Source: Pirellulales bacterium
GTDB taxonomy: Bacteria; Planctomycetota; Planctomycetia; Pirellulales; PALSA-1355
NCBI GenBank assembly: GCA_963733035.1
Contig: CAVTBU010000007.1
Span: 512,001-576,000 of the forward strand
Direction of reading: 5' to 3'
DNA length: 64,000 bases
The number at the start of each line of letters is the position of its first letter. The first letter of the stretch is position 1. A program made the position numbers. This document shows positions 42,001 to 48,000 of the stretch, piece after piece.

Positions 42001-45000
42001 GGCGGCGGCCGCCCTCACCGGTGCGGCCGCCCGCCGGGGCCTTCTGCGAAACTCGGTAGCGCATTCTGGCTTCTCCGCTTAGCCAGAAGGACGCCCCAAA
42101 TGACTTGGGCGGGTTTGCAAAAGCTCGCCCAAGTCGGGGTGCGCGCGGGCCAGCCCGGGGTTATCCAACGCGGTCCCGCCGCCCGCCTTGTGGCGTTGCT
42201 TTTTGCGCGCGGCGTCTGTTCCGGCTTACCACAACCCCATCGGCCCTTGGCGGCCGGGAGGTAGACTTAGGGGCTTAACTCGCCAGTACAGCGTCAATTG
42301 GCAGAGCACGGCATTCGTAATGCAACGGTGCGAGTTGCGGCGCAACGACTTACGTTCACTTGCTGTGCACGCAAGACCCGCAAAAACCTCGGGAAACCTG
42401 CATAGCAGGTGTAGTCGGGCGTAGTCCCCCTCACAAGCAGAAAGTTGCAAGGCAAAAGCAGCATTCGCCGTACACCGGCGCGCCACGCTAAACTTACGGC
42501 ATGGACTACAAGTTGCTTGCAATCACTGCGCAATCCTTCTTTGTCATTGCGTTCGGCGGTCTTTTTCTCTGCATCGCCGGTCTAGTTGGCGGAGAATGGT
42601 TGTTGATCTCAATTGGCGGTGCTTGGGGCGTGATGGAAGCATGCGCGATGCAATTTGGCATGCGACACGCAAGTGCAGACGCATGGTCTCAAAAGCCGAA
42701 TCGACTGATTCGAGGACTCGTCAGCGGAACGATCGTCATTGTGCTTTTCTTGCCGGCGGCGGCCGCGTTTATAACCAATGGCCCCGTGCTCGGGCTCGCG
42801 GTGGTGGCGGTAATCATCGTCGGTATGAATGTGACCAGCCACTTGTGCAACTGGTGGTTCGGACCAGCCGCGCGCGGAGCGGGCCGCTCAGAATGCTAAT
42901 CTCGCCGCATGCGCAGGCTGCTCACAGGGGCGCGAATGCAGACTGTGCGTACCAAGCGCAGAGAAGCACTATCAGCAGTGCGGAGAGCGCGACGAGTATT
43001 AGCAACTGTCGCGGCGTGAATTGCCAGAACCTAGGCTCTCGCCCGTCTTGGACGGGCAGACCTTGCGCAGCTTTGAGCCCCCGTTCCAGCGAGCCCATCA
43101 CGTCCGGCAAACGCCAGAAGAATAGCAAGACGACGATTGCACCAACTATCACAAGCTCCGTCTGCCCTAATCTCATACGGGTATTCTATTCGAAGAATCG
43201 TTCCCCGCTCACGCGCTTCCGCGTACGCTTCTCCAGTGGCGGCGAGTTGCTCCGCATTTTCGTGAACTCGTCCAGGGTGGCCTGGGAAATGCGCCACGAT
43301 GGCCGTTTACGCGGGGAATGGACGCTAAAGGCAGGTAGTTCGCCGGATCGAACGCAACTCTGAATTCTGTCCAGGCTGATAGCACCGAGTTGAGCCAGCT
43401 CTGCCGTCGCCAGTTGAATGCGACACCAGGCGGCCAGTCATGATCACAGGCTCCCCGTTTTGCTCGTATACCTCGCCACGTGGCTCATCCGCAGCCCTTG
43501 GCGGAAGTGGCCGGGAAAGGTAGACTTAGGGGCTTAACTTGCCAGCGTAGCTTCAATTGGCAGAGCACCGCATTCGTAATGCGGGGGTTGCGGGTTCGAC
43601 TCCCGCCGCTGGCTCTGGGTGGTTGCAGCCAAACTCCCTAAAGCAGGTGGGCTTTCTTATTGGGCGCTCTCGGCCCGGTGCTCAAACGCCGCGAGCGGCC
43701 CCGATTTTTCCTGGTTGGAGGTAGAACGATATGTCGTTGGTCGATTCGGACGTCAAGCAGATCGTGCTCGGTGGCGGACCGTTCGGGCCGCAGGAAATTA
43801 AGCAGATCGTGTCGGCGATTGCCGAGGACTTCGGTCAATACCGCACGCTCCGCGACTCCGTTTCCGAACTGGAGGCTCGCGAGGACCGCAGCCCCGCCGC
43901 CAGCGTGCGGCTGGGAGTCTGTCAATTCTTGCTCGGTCGCTACTCGCTGGCCGTCGAGGCGCTCAAGGCGGGCGACGGCGGCGCGCTGGCCCACTTCTAT
44001 CTGGCCAAGTGCTACTATGCCCAGGAGCATTACGACCAGGCGGTTGCCTCGTACGAAGCCGCCAAAGGCGCCGGCTACAACGGCGACGATTGCAGCCTTG
44101 GCATGGCCGAATCGCACAGGATGTCCGGCAAGCCTGACGCGGCCCTGGCCACGCTCGACGGCCTTTCGGGAGCCGTGGAGCAAACGGCCGAGTATCTCTA
44201 CCAACGCGGCGCCACCGTCGCGGCGCTGGGAGGCAATCCGGCCGAGGTCGTGGCCCTGTATGAGCGGGCCGTCGAAGCCGATCCGAACCACGGAGGCGCG
44301 CTGTTTGGTCTGGCCAAAGAGAACGATCGCCGCGGCAACGACGACGTGGCCGTCGATTTGTACGAGCGTTCGGCCGGTCAGTTTCCCACCAACGTCGGCA
44401 CGCTGATCAATCTCGGCGTGCTGTTCGAAGACCGGCTCCAGTTCGAAAAAGCCCAGCAGTGCTACCAGCGGATCCTCGACCAGTATCCCAATCATGCCCG
44501 CGCCCGGTTGTTCCTCAAAGACGCCCAGGCCTCCAGCGACATGTTCTACGACGAGGACGCCCAGCGCAAGCGCGACCGCGCGAGCCAGGTGCTGAGCGTT
44601 CCGGTCAGCGATTTCGAACTGTCGGTTCGCAGCCGCAACTGCCTGCAGAAGATGGGCATCCATACCCTCGGCGATTTGGCCCGCTGCACCGAGGCGGAAT
44701 TGCTTGCAAGCAAGAACTTTGGCGAGACGTCGCTGGTTGAAATTCGCGAAATGTTGTCTTCCAAAGGCCTCTCGCTGGGCCAGTTTGCCACCGCCAAGGC
44801 CGAGCCCGAACCGGCCTTCGAACCCGAGTTCATGTCGGCCGACGAACAGGCCATGCTCGATCGCCCGATTGGCGATCTGAACCTCTCGGTGCGTGCCCGC
44901 AAGTGCATGATTCGCCTGGGGCTAAACACGATCGGCGAATTGCTGCGGCGCACCGGCGACGATTTGCTCGAGTGCAAGAACTTCGGCGTCACGAGCCTCA

Positions 45001-48000
45001 ATGAGGTACGCGAAAAGCTCACCGCCCAAGGGCTCAAGCTGCGGGGCGACTGATCGCCCGCAAGTCGCTTGCCGCGACATGCCAGATACTCGCGAGCGGG
45101 CCGGTGTTTCGCCGGCCCGTTTGCTTTGGCCGCGGGTCGACGTACTTTCACGGCGAAACGAGCGGATGAACATGAATCGTGCCCCGTTCTCATTCGAAGT
45201 CCACGCGCAAGATGCCGCCACCGCCGCGCGCACCAGCACCTTCCAAACACCTCACGGTGCCGTCGAAATGCCGGCCTTCATGCCCGTCGGCACCCAAGGA
45301 ACGGTCAAAGCCATGACCGTCGACATGCTGCGGGCCAGCGGCGCGCAAATGATCCTGGCCAACACCTACCATTTGGCCCTCCGCCCCGGCGAACAAATCG
45401 TGCGCGAACTGGGCGGTTTGCACCGCTTCTCTGGCTGGGACGGACCAATCCTGACCGACAGCGGTGGCTTTCAGCTCTTCAGCCTGGCCAGCAACACGAA
45501 GATCAGCGAACCGTCGGCCGTGTTTCGCTCGCACATCGACGGCGATCTTTTGGAACTGTCGCCCGAGCGGGCCGTCGAAATCCAGGAAGCTCTGGGCAGC
45601 GATATCGCGATGGTGCTCGATCACGTGGTTGCCCTGCCGAACGAGCCGGAAGTGATTCGTAATGCCATGGAACGAACGCTACGTTGGGCCGCGCGATGTC
45701 AACAGGCGCAAACCCGTGGCGATCAGGCCTTATTTGGCATCGTGCAAGGCGGATTGGATGCGGAGCTACGGGTGGAGTGTGCCCAGCGGCTGGCTGAACT
45801 GAACTTCCCGGGTTACGCCGTGGGAGGATTGAGCGTGGGAGAGACGCCGGCAGAGATGTACCGCGTGCTCGATGTGACGGTGCCGGCCATGCCCGCTGAT
45901 CGTCCACGTTACCTGATGGGCGTCGGCCGTCCCGAGGATCTACTGGAGGCGATCCGTCGCGGCGTCGACCTGTTCGATTGCGTCCTGCCGACGCGTAATG
46001 GCCGCAACGCCTTGGCGTACACCGGCATCGGACCCATTCGCCTGCGCAATTTGCAATACGCCCGCGATCCAAGTCCGCTGGAAGAGGATTGCCCTTGCGC
46101 CGCCTGTCGACACAGCCGCGGATATCTGCGACATCTGTTCTTGGCCAACGAGATGCTGGGTCCGATGCTCGTATCGCTACACAACCTGACCTTCTATCAG
46201 CGTCTGTTGGCCGCGGCGCGCGAGGCCATTTCGGCCGGCAGCTATGCCGCGTTCGCGGACGAGAAACTGCGGGCTCTTGGAGGCTTGGGGGCCTAGCGGT
46301 GTGCCGCATCGTGCGGTGCCCTTGTCCCTTTTGGGGTAGCACTTTAAGATACGCGTTTCGCATCGGGATCGCGGCAAAACCGTGTGCTGGCGGCTTGTGC
46401 TGCCAGCGGATCGTCGGGCACGGTCGTAACCTGCCGGCGCAAGGCGGATTCTCTGTTGGCCCACGCTCGATGGCCGCGGTGAAATGATCGCGCCAAGCCT
46501 GGCAGGCTGGCACGACGTGCCGTCGGCTCCCGACAACACCGTCAAACCAGAGCGGGACTGATCTTGGACCACCTAATCTTCTTCTTGTTGGCGCAAGCCC
46601 CCAAGGCGGCACCGGCCTCCGACGAGGGGCCTCAGATCCTGCAGCTGCTGATCCCGGTCGGCGCGGCAATTGCACTTTATTACTTCATGATTTTGCGGCC
46701 CGAGCGACGCAAACAGCAGGGCCAGCGTTCGCGGCTCGACACGCTCAAAAAGAACGACCGCGTGGTGACCATCGGCGGAATCTACGGCGTGGTCATGAAC
46801 GTACAACGCGACACGGACGAAGTGACGCTCAAAATCGACGAGACGACGAACGCGAAAATGCGCGTCACGTTTGGCGCCATCGCACGCGTCGTCGGCGATG
46901 AGGCGTCCAGCGACAAAACAACCTCCTAGACCAGGGACTATCTCTCATGGCTTGGTATTCGAATCTGGCTTGGATCATCGCTCAGGCGGCGCCCAAGGTC
47001 GAAGCGGCAGCGGCCGACGCCGTGCCGGACGCGGCGGGCGACCAAATGACCGGCACGCTGAAACTACTCGTAGCCTTGGGAATCATTGTCGGCTCCTTCG
47101 TACTCGGTTCATTGCTGGCCAATGCGCTGCGCATGAAGGATTACGGATTTCGCCTGGGCATCGTGATCTTCTCGCTCGTGGCCGGCGTCGCGATTTGCTA
47201 CTTCGGCTGGCCGCCGAAACGCGGCATCGACCTCAGCGGCGGCGTGGTGCTCGTCTATGAAGTCGACACTTCCAGCGGCAGCTCCGACTGGATGGCGACC
47301 GCCGTCAAGGACATCAATGAGGATCTCAACGACGAGGGGGGCGAGAAGCTTGTCGCCCGTCCCGTCGGCGAAGACCGCATCGAGATCGTCGTGCCCGCCG
47401 GCGTCGACATCACGGCGGTCGAAAAGAAAGTCGACGCCATGCGCGACTCGGTGGGCATCGTGCTCAACATCGAAAGTCGCGAGAAACGAGACGGCAACAC
47501 CGTGCTGCAGTATCGGGCCGATGCGCGGCAACAGCGAGCCGTGGACATGTCGAAGCTGATCGGCGCGATCCAACGCCGTATCAATCCCGGCGGCGTCAAG
47601 GAACTGACCATCCGCCAATACGGTGCCGAGCAGATCGAAGTGATCATTCCCGAAGTCGAAGAGCGGGAAGTCGAAACGATCAAGAAAAAGATCAGCACCA
47701 GCGGCCTGTTGAACTTCCGCATCGTGGCCAATCCGACCGACGATCGCGAACTGATCCGGGCCGCCCAGCGAACGACCGGACGCGACGTCTACATCGGCGG
47801 CCGTTTGGCCGGCCGTTGGGTCAAGGCCGGTCCCGAGTTGCCGCAATCGCTGCCGCCCCCGCGGGCCACCTACCGCAAAGCACCGGACGGCAGTATGGAA
47901 GTCCTGGTGCGGATGGATCCGTTCAACGTCGACGGTCGCTATCTGACCCGCGCCGGCCAAGGTTTCGACGACCGCGGCGGCCTGTCGGTCGATTTCTCGT

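What a model noticed while it worked through the whole genome (the two positions that open the first line are those of the whole stretch)
43731..45053. Free-standing protein with TPR repeats and two copies of the RNA polymerase alpha C-terminal domain
Apart from the normal rpoA (g02361), the genome encodes a 440-aa protein (g04663) made of an N-terminal TPR array and two tandem RNA polymerase alpha C-terminal domains (alphaCTD), and a further small alphaCTD-only protein (g05550); g04663 homologues of constant length and 71-91% identity are found throughout Pirellulales, usually next to tgt. I read g04663 as a transcription factor built from the polymerase's own DNA- and activator-docking module: a dimer-like pair of alphaCTDs that can occupy UP elements or capture alphaCTD-binding activators, with the TPR part as the regulated or partner-binding end. 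A detached, duplicated alphaCTD used as a regulator would be a new class of bacterial tra [...]
Evidence so far: pfam.tsv: RNA_pol_A_CTD at res 282-343 (E 5e-21) and 370-431 (E 2e-20), TPR_16/TPR_6 rows at 76-255; swissprot.tsv: 49-51% identity to the CTD (res about 237-314) of RpoA of three phyla; only g02361 has RNA_pol_A_bac plus CTD. Both repeats keep the alphaCTD DNA-binding signature S-V-R-x-x-N/K-C (FELSVRSRNCLQ, LNLSVRARKCMI) and N-F-G-x-T-S-L (E. coli numbering R265, N268, C269, G296, S299 recalled). find_homologous_proteins: 8000 of 8000 scored candidates E<=1e-15; all 120 listed carry PF03118, 118 of them 436-447 aa, 71-91% identical over 94-100%; sources call them 'DNA-directed RNA polymerase subunit alpha', 'alpha C-terminal domain-containing protein' or 'tetratricopeptide repeat protein'; [...]
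(Added by a program. Inside this text positions count along the whole contig: contig position 512,001 is position 1 of the stretch shown here. "Call 12" and the like, gene names such as g00115 and contig names such as C1 are that model's own, and its searches are not shown. The text may have been shortened before it was handed on; [...] marks where a part breaks off. The agent that wrote the report below was given it as the finding of a first reader that could run no searches.)

Follow-up and report, generated by a model that had tools for sequence, protein, structure and literature searches.

The report
Phylum-wide TPR protein with two alphaCTD domains
A separate gene, kept in nearly every planctomycete genome sampled, joins a repeat scaffold to two copies of the DNA-gripping tail of RNA polymerase's alpha subunit; it most likely binds DNA, but its job has never been studied.

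Summary
Window 43731-45053 (+) encodes a 440-aa protein with about six TPR hairpins and two RNA_pol_A_CTD domains (Pfam 144.8 bits against a cut-off of 23.8). It has no alpha N-terminal domain. The genome also has a normal RpoA and a small alphaCTD-only protein.

Of 301 sampled Planctomycetota genomes, 298 matched at E<=1e-10, including 191 of 191 high-quality ones. About 287 matched at E<=1e-40, mostly over nearly the full length.

Both alphaCTDs keep the residues that E. coli alphaCTD uses to bind the DNA minor groove. The R265 equivalent is present in 97 of 97 sequences in each copy. Both copies gained an extra basic residue at position 267.

The tgt adjacency is the remnant of a conserved cluster. 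In 40 loci from 29 families, ruvA follows directly in 23, and queH, spoIID or tgt follows in 8.

My reading is a housekeeping DNA-binding adaptor: a pair of alphaCTDs supplied in trans on a TPR platform, probably acting at promoters (confidence 0.4). A RuvAB-linked or nucleoid role remains a serious rival. All evidence is computational. I found no paper on this family.

The parts
43541..43615 (+). tRNA-Thr(CGT) directly upstream (context)
   Evidence: ARAGORN. A same-strand tRNA-Thr(CGT) lies within 400 nt upstream in 54 of 73 Pirellulales loci, but in only 1 of 40 phylum-wide loci.
43717..43721 (+). GGAGG, Shine-Dalgarno-like, 9 nt before the ATG
   Evidence: Read from the sequence.
43731..45053 (+). 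Whole gene: 440-aa TPR plus 2x alphaCTD protein (P0001)
   Evidence: AlphaFold2 model: mean pLDDT 94.0, pTM 0.72.
43731..43892 (+). N-terminal helical region, residues 1-54; least conserved folded part
   Evidence: Model helices 8-13, 20-32 and 35-49. Mean majority fraction 0.29.
43893..44537 (+). TPR array, residues 55-269: about six helix hairpins plus a capping helix 256-269
   Evidence: Pfam TPR families. Model helices. Foldseek matches are generic TPR solenoids. Net charge -8.
44538..44594 (+). Conserved connector, residues 270-288 (family consensus M-Y-Y-D-E...E-R..D), confidently helical at 275-288
   Evidence: Column counts: M271 81/97, D274 87/97, E275 84/97. Block pLDDT 82-95.
44595..44786 (+). 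alphaCTD copy 1, residues 289-352; the most conserved segment of the protein
   Evidence: Pfam 282-343. Ungapped alignment to E. coli alphaCTD, E 4e-17. R300 97/97, N303 82/97, C304 91/97, G331 97/97, T333 93/97, S334 95/97, R302 91/97. Mean majority fraction 0.73.
44787..44861 (+). Acidic flexible tether between the two alphaCTDs, residues 353-377
   Evidence: pLDDT below 50 at 357-366. Length 19-36 aa across 97 members, rich in E, A, P and D. Net charge -6.
44862..45050 (+). alphaCTD copy 2, residues 378-440
   Evidence: Second Pfam stretch. Alignment to solved RpoA chains, E 2e-13. R388 97/97, K/R at position 391 84/97, C392 69/97, G419 96/97, T421 85/97, S422 95/97. Net charge +4.
45097..45127 (+). 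G+C-rich hairpin followed by TTTGCTTT (terminator-like) between this gene and tgt
   Evidence: Fold of 45054-45165: -58.6 kcal/mol, z -3.57, 0 of 200 shuffles fold as well. The consensus terminator scan did not list it.
45166..46296 (+). tgt (queuine tRNA-ribosyltransferase), downstream neighbour
   Evidence: Pfam TGT E 6.9e-149 on ORF 45001-46296. Likely start at 45166, read.
46947..50525 (+). Fused secDF, end of the conserved cluster
   Evidence: Pfam SecD_SecF_C, SecDF_P1_head and Sec_GG.

Best explanation
It is a housekeeping DNA-binding adaptor of Planctomycetota that supplies a pair of alphaCTD modules in trans. Each alphaCTD is a helix-hairpin-helix domain. I infer that each inserts its invariant arginine (R300, R388) into the DNA minor groove, as R265 of RpoA does at UP elements. 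The two modules are joined by a 19-36-aa acidic, disordered tether, so they can occupy two neighbouring minor grooves, much like the two alphaCTDs of one polymerase. CTD1 is linked through a conserved helix to an acidic TPR solenoid of about six repeats, which I infer holds a protein partner. The most likely site of action is the promoter: the protein would read AT-rich upstream DNA and touch sigma, polymerase or a regulator, as a general factor rather than a conditional one. Shown here: the architecture, the conserved residues, the distribution and the gene order. Inferred: DNA binding, the partner and the role in transcription.
For: The two alphaCTDs score far above the Pfam cut-off and align without gaps to E. 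coli alphaCTD. The positions that I recall as the E. coli DNA-binding '265 determinant' are nearly invariant in 97 diverse members. In CTD1: R265 97/97, N268 82/97, C269 91/97, G296 97/97, S299 95/97. In CTD2: R265 97/97, G296 96/97, S299 95/97. Both copies gained a basic residue at position 267 (R 91/97 in CTD1; R 74 plus K 8 of 97 in CTD2), where 21 planctomycete RpoA sequences list only S, T, A and E among their commonest residues. CTD2 also has K or R at position 268 in 84/97. The acidic residues at 259 and 261, which I recall as the sigma region 4 contact in E. coli, are kept in CTD1 (D/E 92/97 at each position). CTD1 is the most conserved segment, with a majority fraction of 0.73 against 0.46 for the TPR array, and it has short tree branches. 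The CTD1+CTD2 clade splits from RpoA alphaCTDs with 100/95 support, and the two copies separate across the phylum, so the duplication is old and both copies were kept. The family is found in 298 of 301 sampled genomes and 191 of 191 high-quality ones. Most genomes have three PF03118 domains, that is RpoA plus this pair. The AlphaFold2 model is confident (pLDDT 94); only the inter-CTD tether is disordered. A rare helicase carries several alphaCTD repeats at its C-terminus, which fits use of the module as a DNA-binding array.
Against: There is no experimental data of any kind. Nothing ties the protein to RNA polymerase except domain ancestry. The protein as a whole is acidic (net -16). CTD1 is near neutral, and it has E at position 297 where planctomycete RpoA mostly has K (15 of 21). 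This may weaken DNA binding by CTD1. The only conserved genomic association is with ruvA and the tgt-secDF cluster, not with transcription genes. Helix-hairpin-helix domains of this kind also bind proteins; I recall the alphaCTD-NusA AR2 complex, listed as entry 2jzb. High conservation of CTD1 could therefore reflect a protein contact.
Confidence: 0.4

Rival explanations
1. It is an accessory of Holliday-junction processing or DNA repair. The alphaCTD pair binds DNA, and the TPR array recruits or regulates RuvA/RuvB, or another repair protein encoded with it.
For: ruvA lies directly downstream on the same strand, within 600 nt, in 23 of 40 loci from 18 of 29 sampled families. Gaps between the matched stretches are often 14-135 nt, which suggests co-transcription. 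RuvA itself carries helix-hairpin-helix DNA-binding domains (HHH_5 hits).
Against: The gene stays at the head of the cluster when ruvAB is absent from it: queH, spoIID or tgt follows directly in 8 of 40 loci. In this genome ruvC-ruvA-ruvB sit about 37.5 kb away at 4932-7319. The cluster ruvAB-que-tgt-yajC-secDF itself mixes unrelated housekeeping functions and is, as I recall, conserved in other phyla. Position in it is therefore weak evidence of shared function. None of the four known LexA-type boxes searched was enriched upstream (0, 0, 1 and 0 of 40 loci), and no palindrome was found in more than 5 of 40 loci.
Confidence: 0.2
2. It is a nucleoid-associated or chromosome-organising protein. 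Binding to the DNA backbone is not sequence-specific, and the TPR array mediates self-association or tethering to a cell structure.
For: It is universal, mostly one copy per genome and conserved like a housekeeping gene. Two DNA-binding modules on a flexible tether could bridge or bend DNA. Neighbouring genes are housekeeping genes.
Against: The protein is strongly acidic overall, which is unusual for an abundant nucleoid protein. Self-association could not be tested. No expression level is known.
Confidence: 0.15
3. It is a decoy or hub. The alphaCTDs do not bind DNA in vivo but capture proteins that normally dock on the alphaCTD of RpoA, such as activators or NusA-like factors, and so titrate or relocate them.
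For: CTD1 is more conserved than a DNA-backbone binder alone would need, including surface positions outside the DNA patch such as T285/E286 and E302. CTD1 has E instead of K at position 297.
Against: The DNA-contact arginine is invariant in both copies, and both gained basic residues on the DNA-facing helix. The position that I recall as the key CAP-contact residue (287) is variable (A 30, Q 18, E 17 of 97).
Confidence: 0.1

Closest known systems
C-terminal domain of the RNA polymerase alpha subunit (RpoA alphaCTD, Pfam PF03118)
   Same: Same domain family, present twice. Ungapped alignment to E. coli alphaCTD. The same DNA-contact positions are kept.
   Different: It is not attached to the alpha N-terminal assembly domain. 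The two copies are in tandem on one chain behind a TPR array. They form a clade apart from planctomycete RpoA alphaCTDs with 100/95 support. Signature changes are R at 267, E (CTD1) at 297 and K/R (CTD2) at 268.
Small free-standing alphaCTD-only proteins (NCBIfam NF005841/PRK07758 'hypothetical protein'; this genome's 102-aa ORF at L004:1453-1761)
   Same: They also carry an alphaCTD without the alpha N-terminal domain.
   Different: They have a single domain and no TPR array. This genome's copy nests with RpoA alphaCTDs of its own class on a long branch, so it is a recent offshoot. Most planctomycete genomes lack such a copy, having three PF03118 domains.
TPR-containing transcription regulators of the RNPP type (HTH plus TPR; recalled, not tested)
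   Same: They work in a similar way: a TPR ligand- or partner-binding array is joined to a DNA-binding module.
   Different: Here the DNA-binding module is a pair of helix-hairpin-helix alphaCTDs at the C-terminus, not an N-terminal HTH. No HTH family was found. There is no evidence of peptide sensing.
BREX kinase PglW and other proteins with an alphaCTD-like insert
   Same: Residues 263-360 match a stretch of the PglW model (E 7e-8, far below its cut-off). A kinase-Sel1 protein carries a copy close to CTD2, and a helicase carries several alphaCTD repeats.
   Different: Those are enzymes that carry the module as an accessory. This protein has no catalytic domain.

Membership tests
RNA polymerase alpha subunit (RpoA) | N-terminal dimerisation and assembly domain (RNA_pol_A_bac / RNA_pol_L) | tested here: not met
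   No such Pfam family among the 20 hits. NCBIfam RpoA equivalogs score 86-129 bits against cut-offs of 228-523 and match only model positions from about 217 onward.
RNA polymerase alpha subunit (RpoA) | A single C-terminal alphaCTD after a flexible linker | tested here: not met
   Two tandem alphaCTDs follow a TPR array. The genome has a separate 335-aa RpoA.
alphaCTD domain family (PF03118) | Match to the family profile above the curated cut-off | tested here: met
   144.8 bits against 23.8, two stretches. In the genome scan each copy scores 75.8-77.3 bits.
alphaCTD domain family (PF03118) | DNA-binding '265 determinant' residues (E. coli R265, N268, C269, G296, K298, S299; the list is recalled) | tested here: met
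   Five of six are kept in CTD1. In CTD2, N268 is replaced by K/R. K298 is T, as in 21 of 21 planctomycete RpoA sequences.
alphaCTD domain family (PF03118) | Actual binding to UP-element DNA or to activators | not testable with these tools
TPR repeat proteins | Tandem 34-residue helix hairpins forming a solenoid | tested here: met
   TPR_2, TPR_19, TPR_1, TPR_6, TPR_16 and TPR_14 score above their cut-offs. The model shows about six hairpins. Foldseek gives TPR solenoids, best E 4e-10.
RuvA | RuvA_N OB-fold domain and RuvB-binding domain III | tested here: not met
   Absent from the Pfam hits. RuvA is a separate gene.

The most novel reading that the evidence does not exclude
Planctomycetota have a phylum-wide general transcription factor that acts as a detached alpha-tail pair. 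A TPR platform docks on the polymerase holoenzyme or on sigma and brings two extra alphaCTDs that read upstream promoter DNA. The polymerase of a whole phylum would then work with four alphaCTD-type upstream contacts instead of two.
Probability: 0.25. Interest if true: 0.85.

Novelty: new variant of a known kind. Interest (0 to 1): 0.62.

Why it matters
The alphaCTD is the textbook docking point for promoter UP elements and for many activators. It is normally thought of only as a part of the polymerase. A detached, duplicated copy kept in nearly every sampled genome of a large phylum, and evolving more slowly than the rest of the protein, points to an unstudied core DNA transaction in Planctomycetota. 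Gene regulation and cell biology in this group are poorly understood. The protein is small, folds confidently in prediction, and has two obvious point mutants (R300, R388). Some planctomycetes can be manipulated genetically. The question can therefore be tested directly.

Tried and rejected
No binding test was done.
- Sequencing runs: no RNA holder was listed. Only small-share DNA holders from soil and sediment metagenomes were found, and I did not lay them.
- Literature: nine searches found nothing on this architecture. A review that I recalled was not held.
- The 'PVC signature protein' CT421.2 is an unrelated protein of 53-80 aa (passages of PMC3444138). PMC4989314 and PMC1403754 were also irrelevant (passages).
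- Foldseek against the PDB gave only generic TPR solenoids and no combined architecture.
- The consensus scan found 0 promoter-like sites and no plus-strand terminator in 43300-45400.
- The region upstream of the gene, 43616-43730, has no unusual structure (z 0.78).
- Upstream 300 nt of 40 loci: no palindrome occurred in more than 5 loci. Four LexA-type boxes occurred in 0, 0, 1 and 0 of 40 loci.
- Many records of 169-171 aa begin at the conserved M271. I see no ribosome-binding motif before that ATG. I read these records as truncated gene calls, not as evidence of an internal start.
- Apparent absences in five genomes. In three of them a family-like piece matched the profile. In G006 and G084 only a short alphaCTD piece matched; I suspect it is cut by a contig end, judging from where the returned loci stop. 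In G059 the TPR part and an alphaCTD matched, and the locus contains withheld bases, which I left alone. In G137 and G226 only RpoA-sized frames matched.
- Distribution outside Planctomycetota could not be tested. Atlas neighbours are all planctomycete.

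
Full report
**1. The observation**

Window 43731-45053 (+) is an open frame of 440 codons with an ATG start. 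A GGAGG lies nine bases upstream.

Pfam finds RNA_pol_A_CTD twice (E 6.4e-43, 144.8 bits, cut-off 23.8). It also finds several TPR families over residues of about 50-260. NCBIfam RpoA equivalogs match only with their C-terminal ends and stay far below their cut-offs, so this is not an alpha subunit.

A scan of the window's own genome finds four alphaCTD domains:
- one in a normal 335-aa RpoA on contig 5;
- the two in this protein;
- one in a 102-aa ORF on contig 9.

The 120 best hits all carry PF03118, are 71-91% identical and are nearly all 436-447 aa.

**2. Anatomy**

An AlphaFold2 model built on 97 diverse family members is confident (mean pLDDT 94.0, pTM 0.72). It shows these parts in order:
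- three N-terminal helices;
- about six TPR hairpins (residues 55-251) with a capping helix (256-269);
- a conserved connector whose family consensus reads M-Y-Y-D-E, followed by a helix at 275-288;
- alphaCTD 1 (about 289-352);
- a stretch with pLDDT below 50 (357-366);
- alphaCTD 2 (about 378-440).

The inter-CTD tether is 19-36 aa long across the family and is rich in E, A, P and D.

The protein is acidic overall, with a net charge of -16. The TPR array is -8, the tether -6, CTD1 -1 and CTD2 +4. CTD1 is the most conserved segment: its mean majority fraction is 0.73, against 0.61 for CTD2 and 0.46 for the TPR array.

I could not inspect coordinates or predicted alignment errors. How the domains pack against each other is therefore unknown.

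**3. The alphaCTD residues**

CTD1 aligns without gaps to E. coli alphaCTD chains (E about 4e-17), with window residue minus 35 giving the E. coli number. CTD2 aligns with an offset of 123. The roles of the E. coli positions below are recalled from the literature. I did not read them here.

| E. coli position | CTD1 (97 seqs) | CTD2 (97 seqs) | Planctomycete RpoA (21 seqs) |
|---|---|---|---|
| R265 | R 97 | R 97 | R 21 |
| 267 | R 91 | R 74, K 8 | S 8, T 3, A 3, E 2 (four commonest) |
| N268 | N 82 | K 52, R 32 | N 20 |
| C269 | C 91 | C 69, A 24 | C 21 |
| G296 | G 97 | G 96 | G 21 |
| 297 | E 85 | Q 43 | K 15 |
| 298 | T 93 | T 85 | T 21 |
| S299 | S 95 | S 95 | S 16, T 5 |

Both copies therefore keep the minor-groove arginine and the backbone-contact loop. 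Both gained a basic residue on the DNA-facing helix. CTD1 lost one lysine.

The acidic pair at 259 and 261 is kept in CTD1 (92 of 97 acidic at each position). I recall these as the sigma region 4 contact in E. coli. Position 287 is variable; I recall it as the key CAP contact.

**4. History of the domains**

I built a tree of 88 alphaCTD sequences: 33 CTD1, 33 CTD2, 21 planctomycete RpoA and the small own protein. The CTD1 and CTD2 rows were every third row of alignment A1.
- RpoA separates from CTD1+CTD2 with support 100/95.
- 32 of 33 CTD1 rows fall in one group (91/86).
- All 33 CTD2 rows, plus one long-branched CTD1 row, fall in the other group (86/86).
- The small alphaCTD-only protein sits inside the RpoA group next to RpoA of its own class (100/99), on a long branch.

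The tandem pair is therefore old and both copies were retained. The small protein is a recent offshoot. The tree has few columns and no outgroup from other phyla, so the origin of the pair is not dated.

**5. Distribution**

A six-frame search with the protein over 301 genomes sampled evenly from the phylum gave a match at E<=1e-10 in 298. This includes 191 of 191 genomes that are at least 90% complete and at most 5% contaminated.

By my count from that table, 287 genomes have a best E<=1e-40. The listed matches mostly cover query residues of about 40-440 at 37-48% identity.

I re-examined five apparent absences with the family profile:
- In three, a family-like piece matched. G006 and G084 gave only a short alphaCTD piece, which I suspect is cut by a contig end. 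G059 gave the TPR part and an alphaCTD, and its locus contains withheld bases.
- In two (G137, G226), only RpoA-sized frames matched.

In 61 genomes the usual number of PF03118 domains is three, that is RpoA plus this pair. A few genomes have four or six.

The all-against-all representative search counts 457 clusters (at 50% identity) with E<=1e-30. Lengths cluster at 430-470 aa.

All nearest ESM Atlas clusters are planctomycete. Nearly all of the 80 loci kept from the genome collection carry a planctomycete name, and none names another phylum. Absence elsewhere is not shown.

**6. Gene neighbourhood**

In this window the order is:
- amtB;
- an ORF without a Pfam family;
- tRNA-Thr(CGT);
- this gene;
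- a 112-nt spacer with a strong hairpin followed by TTTGCTTT;
- tgt;
- a fused secDF.

Among Pirellulales loci, tgt follows directly in 49 of 69 loci with enough downstream sequence. By my count, the gap between the matched stretches is at most 35 nt in about 22 of these. The tRNA-Thr(CGT) precedes the gene in 54 of 73 loci.

For the wider phylum I chose 40 loci from 29 families. I favoured long contigs and different families, so this is not a random sample. Results:
- ruvA lies directly downstream on the same strand in 23 loci (18 families), and 1.5 kb downstream in one more.
- queH, spoIID or tgt follows directly in 8 loci.
- None of these genes follows in 8 loci.

Where the cluster is complete, the order is this gene, ruvA, ruvB, queH, spoIID, tgt, yajC and secDF. 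Pirellulales have lost ruvAB from the cluster. In this genome cysS-ruvC-ruvA-ruvB lie at 3275-7319 of the same window.

The gene therefore keeps its place at the head of the cluster whichever gene follows it.

**7. What it most likely does**

Domain identity, the invariant contact residues and the added basic residues make DNA binding by both alphaCTDs the best-supported inference. Two such modules on a flexible tether resemble the two alphaCTDs of one polymerase, which (as I recall) can occupy adjacent minor grooves of a full UP element.

The TPR array is a protein-binding scaffold by family. Its partner is unknown.

Near-universal presence, mostly one copy per genome, housekeeping neighbours and slow evolution point to a core function rather than a conditional regulator.

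I commit to a promoter-proximal adaptor that supplies alphaCTD-type contacts in trans, with confidence 0.4. The rivals are:
- a partner of RuvAB or another repair function (0.2);
- a nucleoid organiser (0.15);
- a protein decoy for alphaCTD-binding factors (0.1).

The ruvA adjacency is the only independent functional hint, and it argues against a purely transcriptional reading. It is weakened in three ways. The gene persists where ruvAB has left the cluster. The cluster itself mixes unrelated functions. I found no SOS-type operator upstream.

**8. Fused and short forms**

Among longer proteins, only two matched the CTD pair:
- a 1396-aa ResIII-type helicase with several alphaCTD repeats;
- a 1008-aa kinase with Sel1 repeats and a copy close to CTD2.

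Both have few members. Shorter hits are mostly fragments; many begin at the conserved M271.

**9. Comparison with what is known, and verdict**

The protein is a member of the alphaCTD and TPR domain families. It is not an RpoA. Automatic annotation already names the domain, for example 'alpha C-terminal domain-containing protein'.

Nine full-text searches found no study of this architecture. Subscription journals and preprint supplements were not visible to me.

I rate it a new variant of a known kind. The finding is real, is wider than first reported and is open in function. Interest: 0.62.

Noticed in passing
window 4932-5540 (+) and about 5125-5403 (+, other frame): ruvC appears split between two reading frames. 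RuvC profile positions 1-62 match one frame and 57-148 match another. This could be a frameshift, an assembly error or a broken gene. ruvA (5521-6201), ruvB (6198-7319) and an ECF sigma factor (7696-8205) follow.
   Followed up: partly
L004:1453-1761 (-) = own genome contig 9: A 102-aa alphaCTD-only protein. In the domain tree it nests with RpoA alphaCTDs of its own class on a very long branch (2.02), so it is a recent offshoot of rpoA and not a relative of the TPR protein's copies. Most planctomycete genomes lack such a copy.
   Followed up: partly
window 43541-43615 (+): tRNA-Thr(CGT) directly upstream of the gene on the same strand is conserved in 54 of 73 Pirellulales loci, but in only 1 of 40 loci from the wider phylum.
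   Followed up: yes
window 45097-45127 (+): A strong G+C-rich hairpin followed by TTTGCTTT lies between this gene and tgt (z -3.57). Many relatives have almost no spacer before tgt, so transcriptional coupling to tgt may differ between lineages.
   Followed up: partly
P0278 (1396 aa) and P0279 (1008 aa), from metagenome assemblies: P0278 is a ResIII-type helicase with several alphaCTD repeats at its C-terminus. P0279 is a Ser/Thr kinase with Sel1 repeats that carries a near copy of CTD2. Both clusters have only 2-3 members.
   Followed up: no
P0295, P0297, P0301 and about 25 more records of 168-171 aa: Many database records start exactly at the conserved Met of the M-Y/F-Y-D-E connector (residue 271 here), some on long contigs. 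They are probably truncated gene calls. No ribosome-binding motif precedes that ATG in this window.
   Followed up: partly
Atlas clusters near residues 275-440: Small alphaCTD-only proteins (75-188 aa) also appear in clusters whose known taxa are phages (Uroviricota) and Mycoplasmatota. The scores of 0.77-0.81 make these leads only.
   Followed up: no
G022, G055, G094: These three planctomycete genomes have six PF03118 domains instead of three, which suggests a second copy of the TPR-alphaCTD gene or further alphaCTD proteins.
   Followed up: no
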